IMG/VR virus record: IMGVR_UViG_3300042731_006881
Span: 25,748 to 89,747 of that record
Length of the DNA stretch: 64,000 nucleotides
DNA from: a virus
Strand: one strand, 5' to 3'
In this document: positions 18,632-64,000 of the stretch, piece by piece
Numbering within the stretch: position 1 is the first letter of the stretch
How the letters are laid out: each line of letters starts with the position of its first letter
Made by a program: the position numbers and the translations under genes
Notes under the pieces: model-generated
What the model was told of the DNA's origin: nothing
What the model saw: only the letters and a program-made list of their open reading frames with translations
Databases searched by the model: none

Positions 18632-18979
18632 TCATTGGTAGCCACTCCCGTCGTCCACGATGACGCGCTCATGACCATGGTGTATTGGTGGTGGATCTGG
18701 CCGATGCATCGGTATCCCTGCCTCGGTCAACAGTTGCTCGATCGCGTCGGCTGCTCCGAGCTCTAGCGAGTTGTCCGTCTTCATGCATGCGCGGTCCAGG
18801 AAGAGCGCTCTTGCTACTCGGAGGGACTCTGCCCAGCCCTTCCATGGGCTCAAGTTCCGAAAATGGTGTACAACTAACCTTTGTGCACCATCGCGACAAG
18901 AAGCTCGAGCGACAGCAATTTCAACCTCGTAGACTATCATATCTACGACGGCTTCTATTCCTCTACTCATCTTCATCAA
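18632..18979 (-). CDS. Hypothetical protein
   Basis: Coupled to the dnaB stop codon. Confidence 0.45.
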   Translation of the reverse strand: MMKMSRGIEAVVDMIVYEVEIAVARASCRDGAQRLVVHHFRNLSPWKGWAESLRVARALFLDRACMKTDNSLELGAADAIEQLLTEAGIPMHRPDPPPIHHGHERVIVDDGSGYQ

Positions 18980-21438
18980 TCCAAACTCCTATCAAATCCC
19001 CAGTCGTCAACGTCACCCGGGCGCGGCCTGGCGTAGGACGGCTCCTCATCGATTTCCTCCAGGTTGTCGAAGCGCGTGTATGCCGACGTGAACCTAGTCC
19101 GCACAGTCCCTGTTGGACCATTTCGCTGCTTCGCGATGATGACCTCCGCAACGCCCATGTCAACGCTATCCATGTTGTAGTATTCATCACGGTAGATGAA
19201 TATGATAGTGTCGGCGTCCTGCTCAATTGCCCCTGACTCGCGCAAATCGCTCAGCTGAGGGCGCTTGTCATGTCGAGACTCCACCGAGCGATTCAATTGT
19301 GATAGCGCTAGTACAGGAACTTCGAGCTCTTTAGCCAACTGCTTGAGCCCGCGCGACAACTCGCTGACCTCCTGCTCCCTGCTATGCGCATTCCGCCTTC
19401 CGCGCATGAGTTGCAGATAGTCGATCGCGATGAGACCGAGGCGCTTCCCTTTGTGTCTGAGCTCCGCCTGATACCGGCGCGATTTCGCCCGCACTTCTCC
19501 GAGCGATATTGCAGGAGTGTCGTCCACCCGAAGCAGCATGTGCTGGAATGCTCTAGACTTGTCGGTGATGCGACTCCAATCGTCGGAGTTGAGAGATCCG
19601 CTCCTGAGTCGCGACACATCAACCCGCGCTTCCGCAGCAAGGAGACGCAACGCCAATTGCTCAGTCGGCATCTCGAGCGAGAAGAATGCCGCAGCCAAAT
19701 CGCTCTGCTCCCAATTTCCAGGGGTTACCTCGCGCGCCCCAGTCATGTTCGCAGCCACGTTGAGGACGTAGCTCGTATTGTGGGTAACAATGAACCCCTC
19801 GGTAACGAACATCCCATCCTCGTTGCTTACCTTGATGCAAGTGCAACTGCTCCGACCGGTTGGTATCACCCTTGCGATATATCGCTCGCGAAGTCGAAGT
19901 TCCCCACCAACCCACTTCTTCAAATTCTTGTCGCTGCTCACGGGCATGATATCCCCACCGGGGAACGAAAGGTTGATCCTCCAGTACTGTCTCGCGCTGC
20001 ATAGTTCCCCGTTCTTCCGATACGATCCTTGGTGCTCTGCTGATTTCGCTCTACCACCGAGCGACCTAACCAGGAACTCAACGTCATCGCGCAGCTTCTC
20101 CGATGTAGTGCAGTATTCAATTCCCTTCCCGTGCGGGTCGCAGACATAACCGTCTGAATCGCACAAGCCGTTGAGAAGAAGTTGCCGATGCTCCCAGCAC
20201 CCTAGCAGGTACGCCTCTGGAATGAACTTCTCGTGCGACCTACAACATAGCAGACCCAACGCCATCAGGTACCGTTTGATCCCCAACAGTGAAACTCCAC
20301 CACATCCATCGTTGAACCTGCTAGAACCACCTTCCCAACGCTGTTCGACGCAGAAGACAACGTCTTTCTCTGGGTTGTGTATTCGCTGCCCACTACCATC
20401 CCCGAGCCATACACCAAGCACGTATGGGTCAATCGGAATCTCGGATGGTTCCCGTTCAGACCACCGCATCTTCGCAGCAAACTGGATGCTATGATTCAAT
20501 CCTCCATCTGAACGATGAAGTGTTCTGGCAATATCCGCCGTGGTACGCACTGCTCCACACAAACCAGCGCGCCTATCAGATCGTGTACGAGTCACCCACA
20601 GGTGCTCGCCGCACACCTCTACCGAGCAACCGTCTGATGTTTCAACAGAAAACGTCTCCTTCGTTCCTTGTGGAAATACACCCTGCACAATAGTTGGTAA
20701 CCCGTCGGCTCCCATCACCAGATCGCCAACTCGCAGCGACTCTACGCGCTTCCATCCACCCGGCGTCAGTACTCGCTGTCCATCCTTCAGGGCCTTCCCC
20801 ATCCCGGGCCTCCCAGCCACGATGAAGAGCTCTCCAGGGTGCATCCCCGTCGTGAGTCTGTCCACATCGTCAAAACCAGTTCTAGCTCCGGTCACTCCGC
20901 TCGCGCCCGACCTCGATGCGGTTGCCACCGACTCGAGAGCTTCTCCCACCGCTTCGCCGATATCGACCATTGATCGCGCCGATCCGGCCTGGGCGATCGC
21001 CGAGAGTTTCTGCTCCGTTGCGTCGATGTATTCCTGTGGGTCCCCACAATCTCCGTGGGCCTCCGCCGCTGCCCTCTGGCACACGCTAATGAAGCGCCGC
21101 AGACGCGCCTTGTCGCGTACCGTCTCGGCGTGCTGGACTACGTTCGATATCGCCGGTGTCGCATGGGTGACACGCACGAGGTACTCGGTGCCTCCGACCC
21201 GATCGAGCTGGCCAGCGTCCTTCAGCCGCCCGCGGATCGAAACCAGGTCAACCGCGGATCCGTCGGAGCTGACACCGATGACTGCCTGAAACAGGATCCG
21301 GTGAGCGTCCGAGTAGAAATCAGCTGGCTCAACCAGTCCGTCCACGAGGTCTAGCGATGGGTCCGGGTGCAGGATGCAGGCGCTCAGCACAGCCACCTCG
21401 GCCTCAATGTCGTGCGGGGGTAACGAACCGTCGCTCAC
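18976..21438 (-). CDS. dnaB: Replicative DNA helicase DnaB containing an intein
   Basis: PPHDIEAE, GRPGMGK|T, FSLEM, IDYLQL, LSQLNR, DLRESGAIEQDAD, KQRNGPTG. Confidence 0.97.
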   Translation of the reverse strand: MSDGSLPPHDIEAEVAVLSACILHPDPSLDLVDGLVEPADFYSDAHRILFQAVIGVSSDGSAVDLVSIRGRLKDAGQLDRVGGTEYLVRVTHATPAISNVVQHAETVRDKARLRRFISVCQRAAAEAHGDCGDPQEYIDATEQKLSAIAQAGSARSMVDIGEAVGEALESVATASRSGASGVTGARTGFDDVDRLTTGMHPGELFIVAGRPGMGKALKDGQRVLTPGGWKRVESLRVGDLVMGADGLPTIVQGVFPQGTKETFSVETSDGCSVEVCGEHLWVTRTRSDRRAGLCGAVRTTADIARTLHRSDGGLNHSIQFAAKMRWSEREPSEIPIDPYVLGVWLGDGSGQRIHNPEKDVVFCVEQRWEGGSSRFNDGCGGVSLLGIKRYLMALGLLCCRSHEKFIPEAYLLGCWEHRQLLLNGLCDSDGYVCDPHGKGIEYCTTSEKLRDDVEFLVRSLGGRAKSAEHQGSYRKNGELCSARQYWRINLSFPGGDIMPVSSDKNLKKWVGGELRLRERYIARVIPTGRSSCTCIKVSNEDGMFVTEGFIVTHNTSYVLNVAANMTGAREVTPGNWEQSDLAAAFFSLEMPTEQLALRLLAAEARVDVSRLRSGSLNSDDWSRITDKSRAFQHMLLRVDDTPAISLGEVRAKSRRYQAELRHKGKRLGLIAIDYLQLMRGRRNAHSREQEVSELSRGLKQLAKELEVPVLALSQLNRSVESRHDKRPQLSDLRESGAIEQDADTIIFIYRDEYYNMDSVDMGVAEVIIAKQRNGPTGTVRTRFTSAYTRFDNLEEIDEEPSYARPRPGDVDDWGFDRSLD
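19777..20793 (-). mobile_element. Class 3-type intein with LAGLIDADG homing endonuclease in the DnaB P-loop
   Basis: Starts ALKDGQRVLTP after GK and ends FIVTHN before T; LGVWLGDG and LNGLCDSDG motifs; 339 aa. Confidence 0.9.
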
Positions 21439-48302: not shown

Positions 48303-49160
48303 ATGCAGGCTAGTCATGTAATCCATGCTGCAACAGCAGACTCTACTCCGTGCGACAGCTTTGGGGTTGAGATACCCAGTCGAGGATCTGGTTACTGTGC
48401 CGCATGCGGCAGGCCAGCTTACTATTCAATTGCTGATACGCTGTCGGACAATTTCACTACGGTAAAGAACGCGAGCCGAGCATGGCCATTCGGTGGCGGA
48501 GCCACATGCGCAGCATGCGTATTTGCAGCTCGCACGCTTCGCCTTCGGTGCGCAGCATGGTGGGCAACCGAGAGTAGCATTCGTTTCTGGAGGACGCGGG
48601 CAATAGTTGGACAAGAGAAGAATCCTGGTCTACACAAGCAAGCTGCAGACTGGTGGAATCCAGACAGCACTAGCCAACCAGACGGAGTGCTCGAGCTATG
48701 CGATCCGCCGGATCCTCCATTTGTTGCAGCGGTCCCACTTGCTGGAATATCCCATGGCGGAGAAACACACGTGATGCGTGCATGGTGGCCAGGCGAGAAA
48801 GAGCACCAGTCTGGCTATCTTTCCAAGCTTCAATCCAAGCACGTTGCCATCTACGCGCGTGTAGCTACGCGCCGAGAACGCTACCCGCTGCAGGTTGACG
48901 ACCTGATGGACGTCGTGGTGGACGTGGCTCTGTGGCTCGACCTGCACGATGATGCGATAGGGCTACTGGATGACATGGTCGGTTCTTGGCCGAGCGCGAA
49001 GCGCCAAGCGATACTCACGCTTAACCCACCAATTCTAGCTCCGCTCGGTCTAGTGCGAGACTGGAATAACCGCGTTCGGCGTTTGCGCCAGCACGCACAC
49101 AAAACGTGGTGGCCGCTATTCGTCGGCCTTCTGCCAGTGAGGAATGATGGAACGACCTAA
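48303..49160 (+). CDS. csf1: Type IV CRISPR large subunit Csf1 (Cas8-like)
   Basis: CAACG...NFT...CAAC Zn motifs, DPPDPPFV, QSKHV; directly upstream of csf2. Confidence 0.75.
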   Translation: MQASHVIHAATADSTPCDSFGVEIPSRGSGYCAACGRPAYYSIADTLSDNFTTVKNASRAWPFGGGATCAACVFAARTLRLRCAAWWATESSIRFWRTRAIVGQEKNPGLHKQAADWWNPDSTSQPDGVLELCDPPDPPFVAAVPLAGISHGGETHVMRAWWPGEKEHQSGYLSKLQSKHVAIYARVATRRERYPLQVDDLMDVVVDVALWLDLHDDAIGLLDDMVGSWPSAKRQAILTLNPPILAPLGLVRDWNNRVRRLRQHAHKTWWPLFVGLLPVRNDGTT

Positions 49161-50583
49161 GAAGCGAATGGATCCGAAGAAGCTCGAGCAGTCGCCAGCA
49201 ACCCAGAGAGTTCTGCTATTTTACCTAGTTCGCGGCATCATCGCAGCGGTGTCGAAGGATCGTGTCGGCGAACGGCGCTACCGGGGGCTCGCTGCTGAAC
49301 TGAAGGATGCTCTGCTCCCCATCATCGTCGCGAAGCGCCACCCGATGGGGTTCGCCAATGCGCTAGCAAATCGCTTCCGCGTCGACTTGGCCGGCGGCGA
49401 GGACAGCTACCCGGTTGAGTTGTGCACCCCAGACTGGCACATGCGCTGGGACCGCGCTGTCTCTGCTCTCGACTACAGCGCGATGCGCTCCACCATCGAG
49501 GAGAACCCAGCATTCGTTGCCCAGTTCGCAGTCGGATTCTACGAGACGGTTGACGATCTACGAGAAGACCATGAGCTGATCATTGAATACGACCTGCCAG
49601 ATGCTCCAGATGCATTCACCGTTGAGTTGCCAGGCCATGATGTTGTTCGACCACGCGAGTACACTGCAGTGTGGACACTGCTTTCGCCACTCGCGCACGG
49701 CGCAGACGAGAAATGCGGAAACGCAAAGATGTTCCGCCGCGAGCACGCATACGATGCCATAACAGGGCGGTTTCACCAAGTTCCATTCATCGCCGGGAAC
49801 GCCGTGCGCGGTGCGTGGCGCGACATGGTGATGGGTCGGTGGCTCGAGCTAATCGGCTTGAGCGAGACAGAACTCCCTCCGTCGAAGGCGCACGCACTCC
49901 TAGCTGGAGGAAGCGTTGCTGCTGGGTCCGACACCGGCGTTGCTGACCCGGTTGTCCGCGCTGAAGCGCGCGAACTGTGCCCTGCGTGGGACCTGTTTGC
50001 TGGCTGCATCGAGCAGCAGATCATGTCAGGCCGCGCCCGCGTTGGCGATGCGACGTTGGTGTGTCGAGAAAATGCCTGGCGTGTTGGTGACGCCCTGGCT
50101 CCAGGAGAGGACTCTAGGGAACTAGCATGTCGTCTTCCAGAGGCGTCAAACTGCACATCACTCAGACTCGGTACGCGCCAGGCGCACAAGGATATCCCAG
50201 AGTCTGATGGGAGCCAGATGCTGTTTAACACCGAGGTGCTCGTAGCCGGCTGTCAGATGGTACACCGCGTCGCGCTGTGTGGTCTGAGCGGAATCAGTGA
50301 CGTGACACAGGCGTGTTTATCAGACCTGCTCAGCGCCTTCGCCGAGTCTCCATACGTCGGGGCGCAAGCGTCGCATGGATTCGGAAAGGTGGCATTCGCG
50401 CCATACCAGCCGCAAGGCGGAGCACCAGAACTACAGCCACCAAGCATCTACCTGGAATACGTGGCGAGGCGACGAGAAGAAATGCGCGAGTGGGCGATGC
50501 GACCAGCAGTACAAGCGTCCACGAAGAAGGCTGCAAAGCGCGGGAAGGGGAAGCGCAGTGCCGATACTGCCAACTCTGGCTGA
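49147..50583 (+). CDS. csf2: Type IV Cas7 (Csf2) with ~165-aa N-terminal helical extension (probable Cas11 fusion)
   Basis: TLLSPLAHG, VPFIAGNAVRGAWRD, LLAGG, LFAG, GRARVG, QMLFNTEVLVAG, G-rich VGAQASHGFG. Confidence 0.88.
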   Translation: MERPKKRMDPKKLEQSPATQRVLLFYLVRGIIAAVSKDRVGERRYRGLAAELKDALLPIIVAKRHPMGFANALANRFRVDLAGGEDSYPVELCTPDWHMRWDRAVSALDYSAMRSTIEENPAFVAQFAVGFYETVDDLREDHELIIEYDLPDAPDAFTVELPGHDVVRPREYTAVWTLLSPLAHGADEKCGNAKMFRREHAYDAITGRFHQVPFIAGNAVRGAWRDMVMGRWLELIGLSETELPPSKAHALLAGGSVAAGSDTGVADPVVRAEARELCPAWDLFAGCIEQQIMSGRARVGDATLVCRENAWRVGDALAPGEDSRELACRLPEASNCTSLRLGTRQAHKDIPESDGSQMLFNTEVLVAGCQMVHRVALCGLSGISDVTQACLSDLLSAFAESPYVGAQASHGFGKVAFAPYQPQGGAPELQPPSIYLEYVARRREEMREWAMRPAVQASTKKAAKRGKGKRSADTANSG

Positions 50584-51268
50584 GCGGTGGTGGCCCAGGA
50601 GAGTGTCTCAGGTGACCGTCCGCTGCTGGATGCGGTCACCTGTCGCATGGGACACCTACGACGGACTCACTCTCGAGGGTGCGCTACAGTGTTCGGTCGT
50701 CATGATCGAGACCGGAAAGACACCTGACGACGCCTTCGCCGGCTACACCGGTCCGAAGATCGACATCCCGATTCCGATTGCTGACGTAGAGTTGAATGGC
50801 AGCAAGGTGTCGCTGTCGTCATGGGCACACCCGTGTCGCAGCGCAATCGAGGCGGTTCGAGTTCGGCGCCGTCGGCTTCGCACAGACGCCATCGGAGGAA
50901 AATCGAAGGTCCGATACAACCAGGGTCCATTCAAGTGCGCGCAGCTTCCGACGCCAATTCTCGTCACGCCGTACATTGACTTCTTCGTCGACGGGGACGT
51001 CGAGCTGCTGCGTGAGCTGCTCTCCGACTCCATAATGTTGGGCCGTTCTCGTGGTGGCGGATTGGGTTGGGTATATGGCTGCGAGTTCCTTCCGCGAGAT
51101 GGCGACGTCCTGGTTCGCGGAGGAGCCTTGACCAGAACCGTTCCTGCTGGAAGCGTATCCGACGTTGACCCGTCAAAATACATTGAACGAGAAGCGACGA
51201 CGCGAGCACCGTACTGGCATCGGGCGACACGCCAGATGTGCTGGGTTCCGGTGATGAGGGAATCATGA
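50558..51268 (+). CDS. csf3: Type IV Cas5 (Csf3)
   Basis: MRSPVA, LTLEGAL, FFVDGD, LGRSRGGGLGWV, RAPYWH; GTG start 50558 overlaps csf2. Confidence 0.82.
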   Translation: MPILPTLAERWWPRRVSQVTVRCWMRSPVAWDTYDGLTLEGALQCSVVMIETGKTPDDAFAGYTGPKIDIPIPIADVELNGSKVSLSSWAHPCRSAIEAVRVRRRRLRTDAIGGKSKVRYNQGPFKCAQLPTPILVTPYIDFFVDGDVELLRELLSDSIMLGRSRGGGLGWVYGCEFLPRDGDVLVRGGALTRTVPAGSVSDVDPSKYIEREATTRAPYWHRATRQMCWVPVMRES

Positions 51269-51867
51269 AATCGGCAAGCAAGTCTGCCCTCGCTGCCCTT
51301 CGAAAGTGCGTCGATTCAAGCCTCAGCGAGTCCGCTCGGGTGGAGCTGTACAACGCCATGTCAACGCTGCTTGGGGAGCTGGTAGCCGACATCTCCCCGG
51401 ACCCTGCCGCGTCACCTCGTCTTCTCGCCACCGACACCGTAGAAGGGAATGACTACAACCCGAACAGGGTAGCAGACCCAGAACTAGATCTACTGGAACA
51501 AAGCATGCGCGCCGACGGCATCACGATGGCTGTCGTGGTGATGCCGGACGGAACTGTAGTAGACGGCTTTCACCGTCGAACTGTCGCTGGCGCAAGGCTT
51601 GGTCGCCGATACATCCCATGCTCCGTGATCGACCGACCGATCGCAGACCGCATGGCTTCAACCGTGCGCCACAACAGGGCACGCGGAAAGCACCAGGTGG
51701 AACTTATGGCTCACCTGGTGCGAGGCATGCTCGAACTCGGGTGGGATGACGAGAAGATCGCTAACGCGCTCGGTATGAGCGTTGAGGAATTGCTCCGGCT
51801 GAAGCAGATGGTCGGGGCTGCCAGGCTGCTCGCAGGAGAGCAGTACACCAGGACGTGGGACCCGTGA
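51265..51867 (+). CDS. ParB/Srx-domain IbrB-like protein
   Basis: NDYNPNRVA..ELDLL..S...DG, VVDGFHR, RMASTVRHNRARGKH. Confidence 0.88.
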   Translation: MKSASKSALAALRKCVDSSLSESARVELYNAMSTLLGELVADISPDPAASPRLLATDTVEGNDYNPNRVADPELDLLEQSMRADGITMAVVVMPDGTVVDGFHRRTVAGARLGRRYIPCSVIDRPIADRMASTVRHNRARGKHQVELMAHLVRGMLELGWDDEKIANALGMSVEELLRLKQMVGAARLLAGEQYTRTWDP

Positions 51868-52634
51868 TCGTACTGTGTGCTGACACCGCAGCAGCTCCGG
51901 TTCGAGCACGGCGTGCGCTGTGCGTTCGTCACAAATCATATGAGGCTCCGAACAGCTGCCGCAACATCGTTCTGTGGGACGACTTTCAGGGCTCTTGGAA
52001 GTCACAGTTACACGGGTTTGACACGCTTGTGGTAGTCGGACTGAGCCGCATCATCACGCCTTCGAACCGAGTCAAGGTCGGACAGGTCCTGATGCGCCCC
52101 ATCGACGGCGTTCGGAGAATCTCGGTTGACCGCACGATGTTCATCTCAGAGCCGTGGCGCCTATTCTGGCACTTCAGCTGCATCCGACAGCCGTACCAAG
52201 AGCTTACGGACAGCTATCTTGCGGAGACCCGCTACAAGCAGTCTCTCGATGGATTCCGTGAGGATCCGTTTTCGCTCGCCGAGATCAAGGCGTACTCAGA
52301 CGGAAAAATTCAGGCGCATGGACATCCGTTCTTCGAGTCGTTCGAGGTGACTCGAGTGCCCGTCTCGCAGGAGTGGCACCGTCGGTATGCTGCAGAGAAG
52401 GCGTCAGCGTTCGATGAGGAGCACACACCATCTGCCATCATCAAGCGGCTGGAAGCGGTATCGAGAGAGGCGCTGAAGGATCGCAAGATCCCAACACCAT
52501 CTCGGCTTTTTGCTAACCGTCACCCCGTCGCAATTCAGTCTGACCTGAAGGTGGACGATTTCCTCGTCGGGCGCCTTCGTTACCTAGTTGAGCTCACCAA
52601 TGGCATCCACGAAGCATTTCAACCGCGAGCGTGA
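51864..52634 (+). CDS. Hypothetical protein between IbrB-like and IbrA-like genes
   Basis: GTGA-coupled to the IbrB-like gene and overlaps the IbrA-like start. Confidence 0.6.
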   Translation: MIVLCADTAAAPVRARRALCVRHKSYEAPNSCRNIVLWDDFQGSWKSQLHGFDTLVVVGLSRIITPSNRVKVGQVLMRPIDGVRRISVDRTMFISEPWRLFWHFSCIRQPYQELTDSYLAETRYKQSLDGFREDPFSLAEIKAYSDGKIQAHGHPFFESFEVTRVPVSQEWHRRYAAEKASAFDEEHTPSAIIKRLEAVSREALKDRKIPTPSRLFANRHPVAIQSDLKVDDFLVGRLRYLVELTNGIHEAFQPRA

Positions 52635-53685
52635 GGATGTTCTTACAGCAGCTCGTAGGCGCATGTCGATGGTGTTCGACGAGTTCAAACACGTTGTCGT
52701 TAGCGTTTCAGGAGGGAAGGACAGTTCGGTGATCCGTGAGCTGGCGATCGATGAAGCATGCCGCCGAGGCCGCCGCGTATCGATGTTCTTCCTTGACCAA
52801 GAAGCGGAGTACGCAAGCACTGTGTCGATCATGCGCGACTGGATGCACGACACTCGTATAGACCCGATGTGGTACCAGGTTCCAATTCGCATGACCAACG
52901 CAACCAGCCATGCAGAGTACTGGCTGCGCGCTTGGTGGGATGGTGAAGAGTGGATGCGTGAGAAGGACCCAAACGCGATTACCGCTATCGGAGAGAAATA
53001 CCCAACTCGATTCTATGACTTCTTCGAGTGGATGGAGATGCGATCACCGACATCCACAGCCTTCGTGGTTGGGATGCGCGCTCGTGAGTCGCTCAATCGC
53101 CACCGCTCCACAACGAAAGTTGCTGGGTACAGTGACTGGACTTGGAGCACGAAAACGAAGAACCCAGGAGTATTCCGTGTCTACCCGATATACGACTGGT
53201 TTTTTGGAGACGTTTGGAAATTCATCGCAGACAACGGGATATCGTACAACACGCACTATGATAGGATGTTCGCCAAGCATGGCGCAGACGAGAAACGGAT
53301 GCGAGTGTCGAACCTCATCCACGAGCAGGCGTTTCAATGCCTGGCTGATCTTCAGGAGTTCGAACCAGACACATATGATCTACTTATAAAGAGGCTTGGT
53401 GGAGTTCACGCAGCGGCTCTCTATGCTCGCGAGAAGAGTATTTATTCAGCAGGCGAACTCCCGGATACGTTTCCATCGTGGTTGACCTACCGCGACTACC
53501 TTCTAGCCAGCACCCCATGCGACAAAATCGATCGCTTTCGAAAGCGCTTTTCGAAGCAGCCACAAGACGAAGAGACGTACCGCCAGCAGTGCCGTCAAAT
53601 TCTACGCAACGACTGGGAGAACAACGTCCCGGTTCCAAACACGAGAAAGGAAAGGTTGAGGGAGGTATGGTGGGAGAGATTGTAG
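52600..53685 (+). CDS. IbrA-like PAPS reductase family protein (DUF3440)
   Basis: DVLTAARRR, SVSGGKDS, FLDQEAEY, GMRARESLNR, YPIYDW...DVW, MRVS. Confidence 0.9.
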   Translation: MASTKHFNREREDVLTAARRRMSMVFDEFKHVVVSVSGGKDSSVIRELAIDEACRRGRRVSMFFLDQEAEYASTVSIMRDWMHDTRIDPMWYQVPIRMTNATSHAEYWLRAWWDGEEWMREKDPNAITAIGEKYPTRFYDFFEWMEMRSPTSTAFVVGMRARESLNRHRSTTKVAGYSDWTWSTKTKNPGVFRVYPIYDWFFGDVWKFIADNGISYNTHYDRMFAKHGADEKRMRVSNLIHEQAFQCLADLQEFEPDTYDLLIKRLGGVHAAALYAREKSIYSAGELPDTFPSWLTYRDYLLASTPCDKIDRFRKRFSKQPQDEETYRQQCRQILRNDWENNVPVPNTRKERLREVWWERL

Positions 53686-54323
53686 CGTGGAGCGACGTTG
53701 CCATCGTCATCCCGACGATGGAGGAACGGTCGCATCTGCTGTGTCAGCTTGTGGCAGAGCTGCAGCGCGAGTGTCGAGGAGCACAAATTGCCGTCCACTA
53801 CCACGAGCCAGGATCATCGGCGCGGGTAGACTTCCCAGAGACCATCGATCTCGGAATCACAACGGACCGCCGCTGGATCCTGCAGGTCGAGGACGATGTG
53901 TGGCTGTGCCCTGAATTCGGAGATCGGTGCCTGGGCGGAATCCGATACGCTGAGGCGTCCGACGTCTCAGCCGTGACATTCTTCAGTCGTTCGAAGCGCG
54001 ACGTAGAAATGCTATCAATCGGAAAAACTTGGCGCACTCAGTCGCCAGCGTCTTTCTGCATGATGCAGTGCGTGTCGCTGAAAACCGACGCACTACGAGG
54101 GTTTTCTGCATGGGCTCCGACCTGGTACAACGATCCTCGCAATAGCCACCACCAGCACGCCGCAGACCTACTGCTCGGTGCGTGGCTGTCGCGCAACAAG
54201 CGCAAAATGCTGGCTCACATCCCATCATTGGTGCAGCACAGAAAGGTGAAATCGACACTTACTGGTCACCGTGGAGCCAGGCAATCTGATACGTACAGTA
54301 TAGCGTTCGGTGAGGCCCCATGA
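53667..54323 (+). CDS. GT-A fold glycosyltransferase-like protein
   Basis: IVIPT, LQVEDD (DxD-like), PSLVQH. Confidence 0.7.
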   Translation: MVGEIVAWSDVAIVIPTMEERSHLLCQLVAELQRECRGAQIAVHYHEPGSSARVDFPETIDLGITTDRRWILQVEDDVWLCPEFGDRCLGGIRYAEASDVSAVTFFSRSKRDVEMLSIGKTWRTQSPASFCMMQCVSLKTDALRGFSAWAPTWYNDPRNSHHQHAADLLLGAWLSRNKRKMLAHIPSLVQHRKVKSTLTGHRGARQSDTYSIAFGEAP

Positions 54324-54661
54324 AGATCAACGATCTGGTCAACGCTGCCGCTTCCGAGGGGTGGCGTGTGCGTCCGCCAGAGTTGGAGAAACACCCGATC
54401 CTCAGTGATAGAGGGGATGTTGTAGGTTTTTTTTGCCCTCATTCAGCAGGCAGAGGAAGGTGGCGTGTTGGACCAATCTATGTGCACCCATCACACCGCG
54501 GTCGCGGGCTCGCTGCGCAGGCATACTCTTGGGCTGACGGAGTTCCTCTGGTAGCGTACACGCACGTCGACAACAAGGCGTCCGCTCGGGTGCACGAAAA
54601 GCTCGGCTTCGTCCGCTGGTACACCACACGCTCAGGCGGGCAGTACTGGAAACGTGACTGA
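54320..54661 (+). CDS. GNAT acetyltransferase
   Basis: IYVHPSHRGRGLA, NKASARVHEKLGF. Confidence 0.9.
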   Translation: MKINDLVNAAASEGWRVRPPELEKHPILSDRGDVVGFFCPHSAGRGRWRVGPIYVHPSHRGRGLAAQAYSWADGVPLVAYTHVDNKASARVHEKLGFVRWYTTRSGGQYWKRD

Positions 54662-55460
54662 GCCACGCATCACCGACCACGACCGCCGCATCTGGAGGTC
54701 GTGGTCGGTGACTGCGCGCATGCACTCGCGAACTCGCCATCACAAGCGGCGAGTTGAGAAGGCTCGCGCAGTGGTCTCCGATTTCATCGACCGCGATCCG
54801 TCCGCGATCGTCATGTGGAGCGGAGGGAAGGACTCAACTGCGATGACACATCTCGCGCTTGGTGTCTGTCCCACCATAGATGTCATCAGCGAAAAGGACG
54901 ACCTAGACTATCCTGGTGAGCGTGACTATGTAGAGTGCCTAGCGCGTAAGTGGGTCGCTCAACTCACCATAGTTGAGCCTGCTGTGTCCCCAGCAGAGTG
55001 GATGCGCAAGAACGGACTCTCACTCGCTCCTGGAGACGATATCCACGGAAGGGCTGCAGCAATGAGTAAGGATTGCTTCTATAGCGTCGTCGAGGGTGAA
55101 ACAGCAGGGCGCGGTATCATGCTAGGTCTACGCGCTGAGGAGTCCAAGGGTCGCACCGCAAACAGAGCTACCCGTGGTCTCATCTACCACGCTCGCAATC
55201 AGTTGGTAGCGACTCCTCTTGCTGACTGGTCAGGGCTGGACGTGTACGCATACTGTGAGTCGCATGGGATTGAGCTGCTTCCACTCTATCAGTGCGTATC
55301 GCTCATGCACGCGCGTGAGCCGTGGAGACTGCGAAAATCGTGGTGGGTTCCTGGTGCTCATGGGATGACGGGATCAGTCCAGTGGCTCAGACACTACTAC
55401 CCGTCACTGTACTCCAAGCTTGTTCAGTGGTCGCCATCGTCACAATCGCTAGGTGCATGA
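54654..55460 (+). CDS. CysH-like PAPS reductase family protein (type IV-B associated)
   Basis: WSGGKDS PP-loop, GLRAEESKGR, PLADWSGLDVYAY, WLRHYYP. Confidence 0.85.
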   Translation: MTEPRITDHDRRIWRSWSVTARMHSRTRHHKRRVEKARAVVSDFIDRDPSAIVMWSGGKDSTAMTHLALGVCPTIDVISEKDDLDYPGERDYVECLARKWVAQLTIVEPAVSPAEWMRKNGLSLAPGDDIHGRAAAMSKDCFYSVVEGETAGRGIMLGLRAEESKGRTANRATRGLIYHARNQLVATPLADWSGLDVYAYCESHGIELLPLYQCVSLMHAREPWRLRKSWWVPGAHGMTGSVQWLRHYYPSLYSKLVQWSPSSQSLGA

Positions 55461-59953: not shown

Positions 59954-60319
59954 ATGAGAATTCCAAAAAGAATAGATGGACCTTTCGCCACCCGTATTGA
60001 CGGAGCCTGGAAGAGCAGGCGCACACTGGACGCGGCGTGGAGAGCGATTTTAGATTATGCACGTTCCGGTGGTGGAAGTGGTGCTGTAGCGGTTGTTCGT
60101 GTCGATCGCGCCGGTGTTGGGACTCGCGTCGATCCTCCTGAAAGGAGGCCATACGGGAACCGATCCGGATCGACTCGCAGGCAGCGCTCTTTCGTTGTCC
60201 GCATGTCGGACAGCCAACTGGCTGCGCTTGACGCGGCCGCACAAGGAAACTCAATGAGTCGCGAGGCAGCCGTTCGTGCTGCTGTCGAGGAGTGGATATC
60301 ATCATGCAAAGATTCCTAG
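59954..60319 (+). CDS. Protein with C-terminal ribbon-helix-helix
   Basis: SFVVRMSDSQLAALDAAAQGNSMSREAAVRAAVEEW. Confidence 0.65.
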   Translation: MRIPKRIDGPFATRIDGAWKSRRTLDAAWRAILDYARSGGGSGAVAVVRVDRAGVGTRVDPPERRPYGNRSGSTRRQRSFVVRMSDSQLAALDAAAQGNSMSREAAVRAAVEEWISSCKDS

Positions 60320-60825
60320 TAGTCATGGAAGACGGAGTGGTGTGTTCAGCGCACACCAACCGCAGCGGTGATACGGTTGACGTGCGACCGCTGAAGGCCG
60401 TCTGGTGGAAGATGGTTGTCCGTGACGACTACGGTGCAGAGTGGCCGATTAGTGAGCGAGAAATCGCTCGCGAAGAGTGCAATCTAAATTGGGACCGTGT
60501 AACATATGAGGGGACCGTCGATGTCGATGGTGTCCCTCACGCAGTTGTTACTTACACGCGGAAAGAGGTCATCATCGGCTACGATAGAGAGCAGCGTACC
60601 GAAATCCTCGCTCGTGCGGTAGCGAGTCACCAGGAATCAACCACAGATGAGGCGCGATGGGAGGAATTCGTTGCAGATCCAAAATTAACAAATAAGGAAC
60701 GCGGGCGCTTTAAGCGGGTTCGAGGCAACGCCGCTAGATGGCTACTCGAGCGGCGCGGGTTCGCCTGGTCATATGAACGCGAGACTGCAGTCCGCGCTCT
60801 AGTCTGTAGATTGGGTGGAACATGA
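60304..60825 (+). CDS. Hypothetical protein coupled to the Cas12-like gene
   Basis: Stop codon overlaps the ATG at 60822. Confidence 0.55.
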   Translation: MQRFLVVMEDGVVCSAHTNRSGDTVDVRPLKAVWWKMVVRDDYGAEWPISEREIAREECNLNWDRVTYEGTVDVDGVPHAVVTYTRKEVIIGYDREQRTEILARAVASHQESTTDEARWEEFVADPKLTNKERGRFKRVRGNAARWLLERRGFAWSYERETAVRALVCRLGGT

Positions 60826-62780
60826 GCCCCCGTGTCTATTCATTCGGTTGTTCACCACTAGACACAGACTCTATGGAGTCTGTGCAGGGACAGATACAGG
60901 CCTACCACGACCACTACAATGGTCTGGTAGACATCGAGAACGCTCGACGTCTGGCATACGACGCGGCGCGAAGAAGTGCGGTCCCAGGTCTCGTTGAGGC
61001 AGAGGAAGAGATCGCTCCTCTCGAAGCTGAGCTTGCGGCAGCAACCGAAGCTGCAAACCTTGCCGCCCGCACCGGTAAAGGGCCTTCCCCGAAGCGCTGC
61101 CCCGAGGTTGCGCGAATCAAGAAAGCGCTGAAAGCACCGCGAGCACGTGCACGCTCCCTTCGAGCTACCGGCAACGAGATGCTGGCTCCGGGTCATGCCC
61201 GCAAAGAAGAGCTAGACTGCGCCAAGCGTGGAGTTGGAGCGGACGGGAAAAAGCTCGCCGTGGCTCCGAGGATAGCTGAGCGACTCAACGAAGAGGTGAC
61301 AGCTGAGCTTTTGGCTGACGATTCACTCAGCGAGTTCTATCGTGCCGTCGTGGCTCTCGAGGCTGATGCCTTGGCGAAGAGCAAAGCGCTGCGAGGGACA
61401 ACCGGGTGCACCGCCGGAACCTATCTCATGGCCGAGCGGGCATTTGATTCCGCTCGGAAGAAACGCGCGGCTGGACTCCTCCATCGACGCAGATGGGACG
61501 GCGGAGGGAAGGTTGCCGTACAGCTTCGCAAACTCTCTACAGAGGGGCTTTTCCAACAGGCGTCAACGATGCTCCAGGTAGATCGACTTCCATCGAATAC
61601 CTGGGATGATCGGGGGCGCCCCCGAAGAAAACCTAGAAAATACTGCGAAACGCGAGCACGCATTCGATGCGGCTCAGACGGACGCATGCCGGTCTGGGCT
61701 GAGCTTCGAGTCTGGATGCACCAGCCTCTCCCAGCAAATACGTCGATCACATGGGCGTGGCTTCAGGTGCGACGCCACGGAGGAGAGACAACGTACAGCC
61801 TCCAGTTGACACTCGATGGAGACCTGTCTAGGACTGCATCGGGACAGGGAGCATGTGCCATCGATTTCGGTTGGCGCCATATCCCAGACCACGGGCTGCG
61901 TGTCGGATTTCTCCGAGGAGAGGATGGGCATAGGCAAGAGCTGCTGATCCCAGAGCAGCTAGTAAAGAAGCTCGTGCATCCCGACGCGCTACGAAGCGTT
62001 ACGGACACTGTTTTTGCTGACGCCAAGTCGGCATTCCGCGACCTGATGGATGCGGACGACACTCCAGAATGGGTCCGCGAAGAGGGTCAGTACCACGCCC
62101 AGTGGAGGTCTCCTCGTAGGCTCGCCACGATCGTGTGGCGTCGCGTATCTGAAATCAAAAACTCCCAGTCGCTTTGGCACGACTGGGAGCGAGAAAGAAA
62201 GGCTTCAAGGATGGACCTCCTGGACACTCGAGAGGTGATCGAGTCGTGGCTGGCATCCAGAGGCGTTTCCGGGTCAGAGCTCACGTGGCTCTATCTCGAG
62301 TGGTGGCGCAAGAAAAACAAGCATATCTACATGTGGGAGTCATCTCTCCGACTGAAGGCTATCGCTGCTCGGAAAGAGATTTTCCGATGCTGGGCAAAGC
62401 AGATTGCTACTCGATACTCAGACGTCGTGTTGGAAGATTTCGATCTTCGCAACGTGTCCCGCCTTCGGGACGGAGCATCTGAACAGGAGAAGCGGGCAAA
62501 CCACTACAGAACCCTGGCGTGTGTTAGCACGCTCCGAGACGCGATATACAACGCATGCGGAAAGAGCCGCGTGCACAAAATCAACGCGGCGGGCTCAACG
62601 TACACATGCCACGTGTGTGGACATGACTGTCGAGATGACGATACATGGGCTCCAGAACGCAGCGTCACCCACGAGTGTGGCCAGTGCCGCACCGAGTGGG
62701 ATCAGGACGAAAATGCCAGTATCAATATGATCTCCTTCATGCGCGAGAGGTCCGGTGGTGACGCTGAACAAACTCGTTAA
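60822..62780 (+). CDS. cas12m: Type V-M (Cas12m-like) RuvC effector
   Basis: HRRRWDGGGKVAVQL, RIRCGSDGRMPVWAELRVWMHQPLP, AIDFGWR, QWRSPRRLA, VVLED, CHVC/CGQC, WDQDENA match the Cas12m/TnpB layout; array directly downstream. Confidence 0.85.
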   Translation: MSPRVYSFGCSPLDTDSMESVQGQIQAYHDHYNGLVDIENARRLAYDAARRSAVPGLVEAEEEIAPLEAELAAATEAANLAARTGKGPSPKRCPEVARIKKALKAPRARARSLRATGNEMLAPGHARKEELDCAKRGVGADGKKLAVAPRIAERLNEEVTAELLADDSLSEFYRAVVALEADALAKSKALRGTTGCTAGTYLMAERAFDSARKKRAAGLLHRRRWDGGGKVAVQLRKLSTEGLFQQASTMLQVDRLPSNTWDDRGRPRRKPRKYCETRARIRCGSDGRMPVWAELRVWMHQPLPANTSITWAWLQVRRHGGETTYSLQLTLDGDLSRTASGQGACAIDFGWRHIPDHGLRVGFLRGEDGHRQELLIPEQLVKKLVHPDALRSVTDTVFADAKSAFRDLMDADDTPEWVREEGQYHAQWRSPRRLATIVWRRVSEIKNSQSLWHDWERERKASRMDLLDTREVIESWLASRGVSGSELTWLYLEWWRKKNKHIYMWESSLRLKAIAARKEIFRCWAKQIATRYSDVVLEDFDLRNVSRLRDGASEQEKRANHYRTLACVSTLRDAIYNACGKSRVHKINAAGSTYTCHVCGHDCRDDDTWAPERSVTHECGQCRTEWDQDENASINMISFMRERSGGDAEQTR

Positions 62781-62785
62781 ACATC

Positions 62786-62840
62786 GCTTTGCGCATCGGT
62801 ACCAGGTCAGCTACAACTTGATCTGAACCGATCGCAAAGC
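62786..62840 (+). other. Long hairpin between the Cas12-like gene and the array
   Basis: GCTTTGCG/CGCAAAGC, ATCGGT/ACCGAT and CAGGTCA/TGATCTG stacked stems. Confidence 0.6.
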
Positions 62841-62881
62841 ACGCTTCATGTCATTGGAAACTTACCGTTTCTGATTGGGCG

Positions 62882-63544
62882 AATCTACGCCTTGCCCAGA
62901 GGCCTCGTGTCTGGGACCCTGGCCCCTGCTGAGTACGTGAACGATGACGTCAACATCCACGCCTTGCCCATAGGCCTCGTGTCTGGGACTGTGCGGGGCC
63001 GAAGTCACCCCGTGGGTACCGGTCGCATCCACGCCTTGCCCAGAGGCCTCGTGTCTGGGACCGTTAGCGCGCCATTGCCAGTCAGAGTGTTCGGACGACA
63101 GCAACGCCTTGCCCGGAGGCCTCGTGTCTGGGACCGTGCCGCCATCAACCTGTCGCTCAGCTCTCCCATCATCCTCATCCATGCCTTGCCTGGAGGCTTC
63201 GTTTCTGGGACCTGGCTCGGCCGTGTGTGATTGATGGCGATGACTCCATCCATGCCTTGCCCGGGGGCTTCATACCAGGGACCCGAACTGGTGGATGGAC
63301 ATCCATGCCTTGCCCAGAGGCCTCGTGTCTGGGACAGACCGGAACCAGTGTTGCCACGGACCTACACGATCATGCCTTGCTCGGGGGATTCGTTCCCGGG
63401 ACCAGTCCGGTTGTCAGCACTCTGAACGCCGCCACCGCGACAGCAACGCCTTGCCCGGAGGCCTCGTGTCTGGGACCCATCGCTTCGGCCCTCACGATCC
63501 ATTTCGATTCACCACGCCTTGCCCTGGGGCTTAGTGCCAGGGAC
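62882..63544 (+). CRISPR. CRISPR array, 10 repeats of 36 bp and 9 spacers
   Basis: Consensus CATCCACGCCTTGCCCAGAGGCCTCGTGTCTGGGAC starting at 62882, 62954, 63026, 63099, 63176, 63247, 63300, 63367, 63441 and 63509; spacers 36, 36, 37, 41, 35, 17, 31, 38 and 32 bp. Confidence 0.93.
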
Positions 63545-63564
63545 GTGGATAGAGTTCGCGTGTG

Positions 63565-63957
63565 TCACGGATTCTGAACCTCGAAAACGAGAGGGTGAGA
63601 GCGTGGCCAGAACAGAGCGTCTCCCATCTCCTGAGGGCCTAGACCGTCTGGCCAGCGAACGAAGTAGCGAGCACTGAACCTCCCAACCTCAAGCTGAGTG
63701 TCGAAGCTGGTTACGATGCGACCATCCTCCCCATCCGACGCGAACTCTACCCCGGCTGATGTCCAAGCATCTCCAGTCGTAGCGCGCTCCATGGATCGCG
63801 ACCATGCAATAGCGTCACCATCACGCACATCGAAGCGGATCTCTAGCGCTCCACTCAGGTCCACTGGAATCGATTCGCCTCCAGCAATGCGAGAAGTGAG
63901 CGTGTGGTGGAGGCGGTACGACCCTCCAACCACGATTCCGTCAATCGTCGAGATCAT
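63565..63957 (-). CDS. BppU-N-like virion protein (probable end of a late operon)
   Basis: PVDLSGA.EIRF...DG..GRIV...GRFSARYFVRWPDG Ig-like pattern; converges on the array. Confidence 0.5.
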   Translation of the reverse strand: MISTIDGIVVGGSYRLHHTLTSRIAGGESIPVDLSGALEIRFDVRDGDAIAWSRSMERATTGDAWTSAGVEFASDGEDGRIVTSFDTQLEVGRFSARYFVRWPDGLGPQEMGDALFWPRSHPLVFEVQNP

Positions 63958-64000
63958 TCTTCGTCGTCCTCCACCAGTAGGTCATATTCGTTGCCTGCAA

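What the first reader, a model, noticed from the sequence alone, without database searches (positions are those of the whole stretch)
62882..63544. CRISPR repeats diverge with compensatory changes that preserve the stem
Seen: the 6-bp stem reads CCCAGA/TCTGGG (R1, R3, R7), CCCGGA/TCTGGG (R4, R9), CCTGGA/TCTGGG (R5), CTCGGG/CCCGGG (R8) and CCCTGG/CCAGGG (R10), with single mismatches in R2 and R6. GCCTTGC and GGGAC are invariant and the loop is always 9 nt. G-U-compatible changes indicate + strand transcription. Inference: not random decay but selection on each crRNA handle, as in an old fixed guide set or one assembled by recombination (R4 = R9). Divergence may also protect against deletion by the phage recombinase.
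Basis: partly seen in the sequence, partly recalled or inferred. Interest (0 to 1): 0.75.

Follow-up and report, generated by a model that had tools for sequence, protein, structure and literature searches.

The report
Phage Cas12m array with stem-preserving repeat variants
A wetland phage carries a small DNA-binding CRISPR enzyme (Cas12m) with ten guide-RNA repeats that differ from each other yet keep the same RNA fold, a pattern also seen in related phage and plasmid arrays that lack the usual spacer-inserting enzymes.

Summary
Ten repeats lie at 62883-63544 (+), about 100 nt downstream of a 652-aa Cas12m-family gene at 60822-62780. They comprise 7 distinct 29-nt cores. The 6-bp stem is paired in 58 of 60 cells, two base pairs show changes on both sides, and G-U pairs fit only the + strand.

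The "loop" is not a plain loop. Its first three bases (GGC) pair with the invariant 5' GCC, giving the pseudoknot handle solved for Cas12m2 and PmCas12m. The invariant positions are the ones those structures show being read base-specifically.

The complete 89.7-kb phage genome has no Cas1 or Cas2. The best reading is divergence in place, without the homogenising effect of spacer integration, under purifying selection on the crRNA handle.

This is not peculiar to this phage. Several other Cas12m arrays show the same thing: 8 of 11 IMG/VR phage arrays inspected, a GenBank phage, and an Allomeiothermus plasmid. In one, 21 of 21 repeats differ and 5 of 6 stem pairs covary.

The "old fixed guide set" idea is plausible but untested. 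The anti-recombination idea has no support, because identical 29-40-nt repeats persist. No spacer target and no RNA data were found. This is a new member of type V-M; the in-array covariation was not found in print.

The parts
60822..62780 (+). cas12m-family effector gene (652 aa). It has a D-E-D RuvC triad (AIDFG / VLED / DQDEN) and a CxxC...CxxC zinc finger. His300 aligns with Cas12m2 His269, which reads C(-1) and the G:A pair; Gln301 stands where Cas12m2 has Arg270.
   Evidence: PDB sequence search: 23vw_A Cas12m E=2e-60, UnCas12m4a 1.5e-17, GoCas12m entry 8pm4 8.4e-15, Cas12m2 8hio/8hhl about 4.6e-12. Pfam PF07282 TNB domain 7.1e-08. 3020 relatives at E<=0.001, the nearest 37% identical.
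62786..62840 (+). Long hairpin in the roughly 100-nt leader between the cas12m stop codon and R1. Its role is unknown.
   Evidence: The fold of 62775-62890 gives -40.6 kcal/mol, z = -4.9, and 0 of 200 shuffles fold as well. No sigma-70-like promoter was found in 60300-64000.
62883..63544 (+). CRISPR array of 10 repeats. Each repeat has a variable 5' tail of about 7 nt and a 29-nt core. There are 9 spacers; with a 36-nt repeat they measure 36, 36, 37, 41, 35, 17, 31, 38 and 32 nt.
62889..62917 (+). R1 core: stem CCCAGA/TCTGGG, fully paired. R3 and R7 have identical cores.
62961..62989 (+). R2 core: CCCATA/TCTGGG, with one U.C mismatch. The canonical hairpin is not its minimum-energy fold.
63033..63061 (+). 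R3 core, identical to R1.
63106..63134 (+). R4 core: CCCGGA/TCTGGG, with a G-U at pair 4. It is identical to R9 over 40 nt, including 10 nt upstream of the core.
63183..63211 (+). R5 core: CCTGGA/TCTGGG, with two wobble pairs.
63254..63282 (+). R6 core: CCCGGG/CCAGGG. Pair 6 is compensated to G-C and pair 4 is a G.A mismatch. It is followed by the 17-nt spacer.
63307..63335 (+). R7 core, identical to R1, but with the T-type 5' tail of its neighbours R5, R6 and R8.
63374..63402 (+). R8 core: CTCGGG/CCCGGG. It has 5 stem substitutions and no mismatch. The loop starts GGA, which breaks one pseudoknot pair.
63448..63476 (+). R9 core, identical to R4.
63516..63544 (+). R10 core: CCCTGG/CCAGGG. Pair 4 is A-U changed to U-A and pair 6 is A-U changed to G-C. 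This is the terminal repeat.

Best explanation
This is a phage-borne type V-M (Cas12m) CRISPR locus.

**Expression and guide RNA (inferred by analogy).** The array is transcribed on the + strand together with, or just after, cas12m. Each repeat folds into the Cas12m crRNA handle, which has these parts:
- a 3-bp helix, GCC at -29..-27 pairing with GGC at -17..-15;
- stacked on it, a 6-bp helix, -23..-18 pairing with -8..-3;
- a closing G(-24):A(-2) pair;
- a final C(-1).

By analogy with PmCas12m, the RNA is cut a few nt into the repeat and about 17-18 nt into the spacer. Only the first ~17 nt of each irregular spacer (17-41 nt) would then serve as the guide. The complex would bind PAM-flanked DNA and silence it rather than cut it.

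**Why the repeats differ (inferred).** The phage has no Cas1-Cas2, so no integration step copies the leader-proximal repeat and keeps the repeats alike. The repeats have therefore drifted apart in place, with occasional duplication or conversion (R4 = R9). Purifying selection keeps what the protein needs: positions read base-specifically stay invariant, while stem positions contacted through the backbone change freely as long as they still pair.

**What is shown and what is not.** Shown here: the anatomy, the covariation, the family membership and the absence of adaptation genes. Inferred: processing, DNA binding, and the functionality of each variant.
For: **Effector.** Cas12m homology: E=2e-60 to PDB 23vw_A and about 4.6e-12 to Cas12m2.

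**Placement of the array.** It is co-oriented with cas12m and starts about 100 nt downstream.

**Stem within this array.**
- Pairing is 52 of 54 distinct cells, reached by 1 of 500 shuffles.
- Random-substitution simulation: 0 of 20000 runs did as well.

**Invariant and variable columns.**
- Variable: 0 of 3 in GCC, 0 of 3 in the linker, 0 of 2 in AC.
- Variable: 5 of 6 in the 5' stem arm, 2 of 6 in the 3' stem arm and 4 of 6 in the rest of the loop.

**Second helix is register-specific.**
- Window: 29 of 30 cells paired, against 11-20 of 30 in other registers.
- L068: 87 of 87.
- It covaries across loci: CCC/GGG in L083, AGA/TCT in Rctr197k, ACC/GGT in one L074 repeat.

**Published structures with the same architecture.**
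- Cas12m2: G(-23):A(-2), C(-22..-17) pairing with G(-8..-3), the 5' 7 nt disordered, and C(-1) and the G:A pair read by His269/Arg270 (PMC10442227, section 7 read).
- PmCas12m: G(-28..-26) pairing with -15..-17, and C(-23..-20) with -3..-6. Its mature crRNA is a ~33-nt repeat part plus a ~17-nt guide (preprint 10.64898/2026.03.26.714355, passages).
- His300 aligns with His269.

**No adaptation genes.** No Cas1 or Cas2 was found in the complete genome, and the controls gave hits.

**Divergence in place.** Each repeat's nearest different repeat is in this array (0.78-0.96 identity), not in another locus (0.70-0.87). All ten share the window-specific 3-nt linker.

**Family trait.**
- Distinct cores per repeats in the model-fitted alignment: L068 13 of 29, L071 6 of 14, L074 21 of 21 (124 of 126 cells paired, 5 of 6 pairs covary), L076 5 of 12, L077 7 of 11, L083 5 of 8.
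- The Allomeiothermus plasmid array has 8 repeats, all different, and the phage Rctr197k array is polymorphic.
Against: - Two of the 10 repeats (R2, R6) have a stem mismatch and do not fold canonically as their minimum-energy structure. R8 loses one pseudoknot pair. Some units may therefore be decaying rather than selected.
- The count of stem pairs with changes on both sides (2) is not above shuffles: 196 of 500 reached it. The repeats are related, so independent compensated events number only about 3.
- The per-array statistics for relatives come from an alignment fitted to the stem model, and from hits selected by that model. Both lean towards pairing.
- Some Cas12m arrays without visible adaptation genes nearby are homogeneous (L080, 1 variant in 10). 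L071 and L076 have about 10 near-identical repeats before their divergent ones. Lack of Cas1-Cas2 in cis therefore does not always give heterogeneity, and acquisition in trans may occur.
- I did not check those relatives' genomes for Cas1 or Cas2.
- Gln301 replaces the Arg that stacks on C(-1) in Cas12m2.
- No transcript, target or activity data exist for this locus.
Confidence: 0.68

Rival explanations
1. Mosaic array. The repeat variants evolved in separate arrays or phages that each had uniform repeats. Recombination of repeat-spacer cassettes then brought them together, so the compensatory changes were fixed elsewhere.
For: - R4 = R9 over 40 nt, including 10 nt of upstream flank.
- R7 has the R1 core but the T-type tail of its neighbours R5, R6 and R8.
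- The terminal repeats of L071 and L076 resemble repeat types of other loci.
- Low-depth contigs in the likely source sample join window-like repeats to other spacers and to a further repeat variant (one contig each).
Against: - All ten repeats share lineage-specific features: the 3-nt linker and an invariant GCCTTGC.
- Each repeat is nearer to another repeat of this array than to any of the repeats from other loci in the two model alignments.
- No donor array was found. The pattern scan of IMG/VR gave 59 loci, each with a single match, and none with an array.
Confidence: 0.15
2. Repeat heterogeneity is itself selected, because non-identical repeats resist deletion of spacers by homologous or single-strand-annealing recombination in the phage.
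For: - The variants are interspersed along the array rather than confined to the trailer end.
- Heterogeneity recurs in arrays carried on mobile elements.
- It is known from engineered arrays that repeat identity causes instability; this is recalled, not checked here.
Against: - R1, R3 and R7 share identical 29-nt cores, and R4 and R9 share 40 identical nt, so recombination substrates remain.
- The invariant 7-nt and 5-nt blocks and the conserved loop leave long near-identical runs.
- Drift without homogenisation explains the same pattern with no extra assumption.
- Homogeneous Cas12m arrays also exist on phages (L080).
Confidence: 0.08
3. The array is a decaying remnant that no longer makes working guides. 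The preserved stem reflects only recent common ancestry and the GC-rich composition.
For: - R2 and R6 have stem mismatches.
- Spacer lengths are irregular, 17-41 nt.
- No spacer match was found in the phage's own genome, the phage or plasmid collections, or 5 related phage records.
- For single repeats, fold energies are not better than shuffles (z from -1.4 to +1.4).
Against: - The cas12m ORF is intact, with a conserved triad, zinc finger and His300.
- R8 and R10 carry 5 and 4 stem substitutions with no mismatch (P = 0.007 and 0.012).
- The positions read base-specifically in solved complexes are invariant.
- The same constraint is seen across 86 distinct repeats.
- Irregular spacer length matters little if the guide is trimmed to about 17 nt.
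Confidence: 0.08

Closest known systems
Type V-M CRISPR-Cas12m2 of Mycolicibacterium mucogenicum (PDB 8HHL/8HIO; PMC10442227)
   Same: - A single compact effector with a C-terminal RuvC and zinc finger.
- A co-oriented array with a repeat of about 36 nt.
- The crRNA handle has a disordered 5' ~7 nt, a 6-bp helix ending 2 nt before the spacer, a G:A closing pair and a terminal C.
- The WED His (His269 = His300 here) is conserved.
- No adaptation genes.
   Different: - Only E of about 4.6e-12 over parts of the protein.
- The RuvC triad here is D-E-D, not the non-canonical one of Cas12m2.
- Gln replaces Arg270.
- The loop is 9 nt, not 8 nt, and the linker is one nt longer.
- The host element is a 90-kb tailed phage.
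- The repeats are heterogeneous; the paper's passages I read do not mention repeat variation.
PDB 23vw_A 'CRISPR-associated DNA-binding protein Cas12m', and PmCas12m of preprint 10.64898/2026.03.26.714355. I did not verify that these are the same protein.
   Same: - 23vw_A is the best solved relative (E=2e-60) and has a D-E-D-type triad in the alignment.
- The PmCas12m crRNA has the 3-bp GCC-type helix plus a second helix ending at -3, a ~33-nt handle and a ~17-nt guide.
- PmCas12m is reported to be inactive on DNA in a PAM-depletion assay.
   Different: - About 30-35% identity over the aligned parts.
- 577 aa, against 652 aa here.
- The stem described there is 4 bp, against 6 bp here.
Cas12m arrays of other uncultivated phages (IMG/VR loci L068, L070, L074, L077), GenBank phage Rctr197k (KX853510) and Allomeiothermus silvanus plasmid pMESIL02 (NC_014214)
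   Same: - The array lies directly downstream of a Cas12m homologue.
- The handle architecture is the same.
- Repeats are non-identical and interspersed, with stem-preserving changes.
   Different: - The proteins are only 23-31% identical by tblastn.
- Stem sequences differ.
- L074 is far more extreme: a period of about 47 nt, with every repeat different.
- The window alone (with pMESIL02) has a 3-nt linker.
Compensatory base changes between CRISPR repeat families (Kunin et al. 2007, PMC1896005; abstract seen in a search listing), and degenerate terminal repeats of ordinary arrays (recalled)
   Same: Repeat stems are conserved through compensatory changes, and repeats distal to the leader are often diverged.
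   Different: The published covariation is between arrays of different organisms. Here it lies among the repeats of one array, and the variants are interspersed, not only terminal.

Membership tests
Type V-M CRISPR-Cas (Cas12m) | The effector is homologous to characterised Cas12m proteins. | tested here: met
   phmmer against PDB sequences: 23vw_A Cas12m 2e-60, UnCas12m4a 1.5e-17, 8pm4 8.4e-15, Cas12m2 4.6e-12.
Type V-M CRISPR-Cas (Cas12m) | A C-terminal RuvC-like domain with an inserted zinc finger (TNB). | tested here: met
   Pfam PF07282 at 7.1e-08, above its cut-off. The AIDFG / VLED / DQDEN motifs and two CxxC pairs align with the solved Cas12m proteins.
Type V-M CRISPR-Cas (Cas12m) | An adjacent, co-oriented CRISPR array whose repeat 3' part forms the crRNA handle (pseudoknot: a 3-bp helix plus a 4-6-bp helix, ending ..AC). 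| tested here: met
   compared with the published crRNA descriptions.
Type V-M CRISPR-Cas (Cas12m) | No adaptation module (cas1, cas2). | tested here: met
   PF01867 and PF09827 gave 0 matches in the complete 89,747-bp genome, and the controls were positive. cas4 was not searched.
Type V-M CRISPR-Cas (Cas12m) | No tracrRNA; the effector matures its own pre-crRNA. | tested here: inconclusive
   The repeat model gave no minus-strand (anti-repeat-like) hit in the 64-kb window at E<=1. Partial anti-repeats would be missed, and processing cannot be tested here.
Type V-M CRISPR-Cas (Cas12m) | PAM-dependent DNA binding without cleavage (silencing). | not testable with these tools
   The triad is D-E-D. 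D-E-D Cas12m variants were reported not to cleave (PMC11013384 passages; preprint), but this protein is untested.
Canonical adaptive CRISPR array (maintained by Cas1-Cas2) | Near-identical repeats and spacers of nearly constant length. | tested here: not met
   7 distinct cores among 10 repeats, mean pairwise core identity 0.86. Start-to-start spacing ranges from 53 to 77.

The most novel reading that the evidence does not exclude
Type V-M arrays on phages and plasmids are not kept up by any integrase. Instead they evolve as tandem families of separate guide-RNA genes:
- units are duplicated, converted and individually mutated;
- each handle is held only to the pseudoknot fold and a few base-read positions;
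- the array can shrink to minimal units of about 47 nt (29-nt handle plus 17-18-nt guide), as in locus L074.

This would make V-M a living intermediate between single-guide TnpB/omega-RNA elements and true adaptive CRISPR. Its arrays would also be a natural mutational scan of the Cas12m handle.
Probability: 0.3. Interest if true: 0.7.

Novelty: new member of a known kind. Interest (0 to 1): 0.45.

Why it matters
**A free functional map of the crRNA handle.** If the variant handles work, the array, and the more extreme arrays of relatives, give a natural map of the Cas12m crRNA handle. They show which positions must be fixed (GCC/GGC, the first C-G of the stem, G...AC) and which need only pair.

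**Use in engineering.** That map is directly usable for designing non-repetitive multiplex Cas12m guide arrays. Cas12m is being developed as a compact DNA-binding platform (base editors, epigenome editors, circuits; listings).

**Evolution of adaptation-less CRISPR.** The pattern bears on how CRISPR systems on mobile elements gain and keep guides without an adaptation module, and on the evolutionary step between TnpB and Cas12.

**Limits.** For this phage, the targets of the nine guides remain unknown. The biological role (inter-phage competition, host gene silencing or anti-defence) is therefore open.

Tried and rejected
**Spacer targets.** None was found.
- Own genome with the array masked: best hits were 12-nt exact matches, E about 0.1.
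- GenBank phages: best hit E=0.2, to a Mycobacterium phage membrane-protein gene; treated as chance.
- PLSDB plasmids: no match.
- Five related phage records: best E=0.26.
- I did not scan the large collections with typed spacers. Only exact matches are possible there, and typing several neighbouring spacers would have split a stretch of the window.

**Expression.** No RNA holder was listed, and only contigs of the likely source DNA run were available. Read laying gave no joints and no base differences at full depth.

**Rfam.** Nothing relevant: only sR36 at E=0.82.

**Promoter and terminator scan.** No promoter-like site. The one + strand terminator-like hit is repeat R5 itself.

**Tandem Repeats Finder.** 0 rows, because the spacers differ.

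**Close relatives for array comparison.** None was available.
- Cas12m in IMG/VR with the single protein: none.
- Metagenome scan: one locus, 31% identical.
- TerL in IMG/VR: none.
- TerL in GenBank phages: at most 34% identical.

**Repeat pattern in IMG/VR.** 59 loci with a single match each, taken as chance.

**Mycobacterium intracellulare plasmid homologue (L088).** No repeats were found downstream.

**Type IV-B idea.** I did not test this. The repeat matches the Cas12m handle and abuts cas12m.

**Literature.** Five searches and several read passages turned up no description of covariation within a single V-M array. Wu et al. 2022 (Mol Cell) was not in the library, and supplements were closed; either may hold repeat tables that bear on this.
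Full report
**What is there**

The window is the last 64 kb of a complete 89,747-bp IMG/VR virus record with 70-bp terminal repeats. It encodes a tail sheath, portal, large terminase, DnaB-type helicase and several DNA methyltransferases.

At 62879-63545 on the + strand, the repeat finder gives ten copies of one repeat, with start-to-start spacing of 72, 72, 73, 77, 71, 53, 67, 74 and 68. A pattern search with up to 3 mismatches finds these ten and no others in the whole genome. A covariance model of the repeat finds only these ten in the window at E<=1, all on the + strand.

About 100 nt upstream ends a 652-aa ORF (60822-62780, +). Evidence that it is a Cas12m-family protein:
- PDB 23vw_A 'Cas12m' at E=2e-60, UnCas12m4a 1.5e-17, 8pm4 8.4e-15, and Cas12m2 (8hio/8hhl) about 4.6e-12.
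- The Pfam Cas12f1-like TNB domain, above its cut-off.
- A large family: 3020 representatives at E<=0.001 and 1054 at 1e-30. The nearest relative is only 37% identical.

**Checking the observation**

- Stem arms: CCCAGA/TCTGGG (R1, R3, R7), CCCGGA/TCTGGG (R4, R9), CCTGGA/TCTGGG (R5), CTCGGG/CCCGGG (R8) and CCCTGG/CCAGGG (R10).
- One mismatch in R2 (U.C) and one in R6 (G.A).
- GCCTTGC and GGGAC are invariant.
- The loop is 9 nt throughout.
- R4 = R9 over 40 nt.

On nine distinct rows, 52 of 54 stem cells pair (96.3%), against 88.9 +/- 2.2% in shuffles; 1 of 500 shuffles reached the observed value. In slid registers only 7-59% of cells pair.

Two pairs change on both sides. Pair 4 occurs as A-U, G-U, G-C and U-A. 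Pair 6 occurs as A-U and G-C.

One measure, the count of such pairs, is not above shuffles (196 of 500 reached it). R6, R8 and R10 share the G-C at pair 6, so I count about three independent compensated events.

I placed the observed number of stem substitutions at random in a simulation. This gave P=0.007 for R8 (5 changes, no mismatch) and P=0.012 for R10 (4 changes, no mismatch). No run in 20000 did as well jointly, assuming independent repeats.

Read from the - strand, 7 of 60 cells would be unpaired, against 2 of 60 on the + strand.

Against a strong reading: single-repeat fold energies are no better than shuffles (z from -1.4 to +1.4), and R2 and R6 do not adopt the canonical hairpin as their minimum-energy fold.

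**What the repeat is**

Two published Cas12m complexes describe the same RNA.

In Cas12m2 (PMC10442227, section 7 read):
- The 36-nt scaffold has a disordered 5' end, -36 to -30.
- There is a non-canonical G(-23):A(-2) pair.
- C(-22..-17) pairs with G(-8..-3).
- This helix stacks coaxially on a second stem.
- C(-1) and the G:A pair are read base-specifically by His269 and Arg270.

In PmCas12m (preprint 10.64898/2026.03.26.714355, passages read):
- G(-28..-26) pairs with -15..-17.
- C(-23..-20) pairs with -3..-6.
- The mature crRNA is a ~33-nt repeat part plus a ~17-nt guide.
- Cuts fall after repeat nt 2-3 and at guide positions 17-18.

The window's repeat maps onto this as follows:

| Element | Position | State in the ten repeats |
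|---|---|---|
| 5' tail | about 7 nt | variable |
| GCC | -29..-27 | invariant |
| Linker TTG, with G(-24) | -26..-24 | invariant |
| Stem | -23..-18 with -8..-3 | variable but paired |
| GG(C), first loop bases | -17..-15 | invariant except C to A in R8 |
| A(-2), C(-1) | -2, -1 | invariant |

So the 'loop' holds the 3' arm of a second helix.

That helix is register-specific. In the window 29 of 30 cells pair, against 11-20 of 30 in neighbouring registers; in L068, 87 of 87 pair. It also covaries between loci: CCC/GGG in L083, AGA/TCT in phage Rctr197k, and ACC/GGT in one repeat of L074.

Variable columns fall where the solved complexes show backbone contacts: 5 of 6 in the 5' stem arm, 2 of 6 in the 3' stem arm and 4 of 6 in the rest of the loop. 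None fall in GCC, the linker or AC.

In the protein, His300 aligns with His269 and is invariant in 25 aligned relatives. Gln301 stands in place of Arg270.

D-E-D Cas12m proteins tested by others did not cut DNA (PMC11013384 passages). This one is untested.

**Why the repeats differ**

The complete genome has no Cas1 and no Cas2; the same searches hit in control genomes. This is typical of subtype V-M (PMC11013384 introduction; PMC11656645 passages).

Without integration, nothing copies the leader-proximal repeat into new units. Repeats can then drift, checked only by what the effector needs.

Two results argue for divergence in place rather than import:
- All ten repeats share the lineage-specific 3-nt linker.
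- Each repeat's nearest different repeat lies in this array (0.78-0.96 identity over the 23-nt stem-loop part), not in another locus (0.70-0.87).

Duplication or conversion inside the array is likely. R4 = R9 including 10 nt of upstream flank. R7 has the R1 core with the T-type tail of its neighbours R5, R6 and R8.

The irregular spacers (17-41 nt with a 36-nt repeat) stop being a problem if, as in PmCas12m and Cas12m2, only about 17 nt form the heteroduplex.

**It is a family trait**

A profile of 25 relatives found 19 IMG/VR loci. These are 15 distinct loci, because L070=L072, L073=L074=L075 and L082=L085. Most are on contigs of 47-229 kb.

Clear arrays lie directly downstream in 11 of the 15 (L068, L069, L070, L071, L074, L076, L077, L079, L080, L083, L086). 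Signals are weak in L078 and L082, and there is none in L081 or in the cut-off L084.

In the model-fitted alignment, the distinct cores per repeats were:

| Locus | Distinct cores / repeats | Notes |
|---|---|---|
| window | 7 / 10 | |
| L068 | 13 / 29 | same A-to-G, G-U polymorphism at stem pair 4: 18 A-U, 11 G-U |
| L071 | 6 / 14 | |
| L074 | 21 / 21 | 124 of 126 cells paired; 5 of 6 pairs covary within one array; period about 47 nt |
| L076 | 5 / 12 | |
| L077 | 7 / 11 | |
| L083 | 5 / 8 | |
| L080 | 1 / 10 | |
| L079 | 1 / 4 | tandem copies of one 73-nt repeat-spacer unit |

- L069 and L070 were poorly captured by the model (3 and 4 rows). They are visibly polymorphic.
- L086 shows single-base variants.
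- By my reading, 8 of the 11 arrays have interspersed variants. L071 and L076 have them mainly at the distal end.

Outside IMG/VR, the GenBank phage Rctr197k has an annotated CRISPR next to its homologue, with a polymorphic loop. Plasmid pMESIL02 of Allomeiothermus silvanus has eight repeats, all different.

Over 86 distinct repeats from the window and 12 loci, the main stem is 98.3% paired, 5 of 6 pairs change on both sides, and the first C-G pair is kept in 85 of 86. Zero of 500 shuffles reach the observed score.

Caveat: hits were selected by, and aligned to, the stem model. This favours pairing. The second helix was not in the model.

**What remains open**

- No spacer target was found, and no RNA run holds the locus.
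- No near relative of the phage or its Cas12m exists in the collections searched. 'Old fixed guide set' therefore cannot be tested by comparison.
- In the one DNA run that holds the locus, probably its source, a few contigs hint at related arrays with other content:
  - A 96-nt contig, at depth 4 against about 190-240 for the main contigs, joins an R5-like repeat to 29 other letters.
  - Single contigs put other sequence before and after an R4-type repeat, including a further repeat variant.
- The idea that heterogeneity protects against recombination is not supported. R1, R3 and R7 share 29 identical nt, and R4 and R9 share 40.
Supplements of the Cas12m papers, which may list repeats, could not be seen.

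**Verdict**

The locus is a new, divergent, phage-borne member of subtype V-M. Its repeat variation is best explained by drift in place, without integrase-driven homogenisation, under selection for the pseudoknot handle.

I did not find covariation within a single V-M array described in five literature searches or in the passages I read. It is shared by many V-M arrays, some far more striking than this one.

Noticed in passing
window 62786-62840 (+): A strong, long hairpin lies in the leader between the cas12m stop codon and the first repeat. The 116-nt stretch folds at -40.6 kcal/mol, z = -4.9, and 0 of 200 shuffles fold as well. No U-tract follows it. It could be an attenuator, a processing site or a leader element.
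   Followed up: partly
L074:4760-6100 (identical in L073 and L075), IMG/VR contig of 180 kb: This Cas12m array has a period of about 47 nt, i.e. a ~29-nt handle plus a ~17-18-nt spacer. Every repeat differs (21 of 21 in the model alignment) and 5 of 6 stem pairs covary within the one array. It is a far more extreme case than the window.
   Followed up: partly
L079:4937-5191: Three to four perfect tandem copies of one 73-nt repeat-plus-spacer unit lie downstream of a Cas12m homologue. This is duplication of a whole guide unit.
   Followed up: no
window 63175-63211 and 63102-63134, in run X1: Low-depth or single contigs of the likely source sample attach window-like repeats to other spacers and to a further repeat variant. 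This suggests minor array variants in the population.
   Followed up: no
window 60822-62780, residues 300-301: The conserved His-Arg pair that reads C(-1) and the G:A pair in Cas12m2 is His-Gln here. The column is Arg in at least 90% of 25 aligned relatives.
   Followed up: partly
window 48303-55460: Earlier notes of this scan place a type IV-B module, with a cysH-like gene, on the same strand about 5-12 kb upstream. My PHROG scan hit the PAPS-reductase-like gene at 54654-55460. Whether that array-less complex uses this array is untested.
   Followed up: no
window 18976-21438 (-): An 820-aa ORF combines matches to DnaB-like helicase (residues 560-799) with matches in residues 184-561 to PHROG families labelled 'terminase large subunit', 'helicase loader' and 'primase'. 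It may contain an intein or inserted domain, or be a fusion.
   Followed up: no
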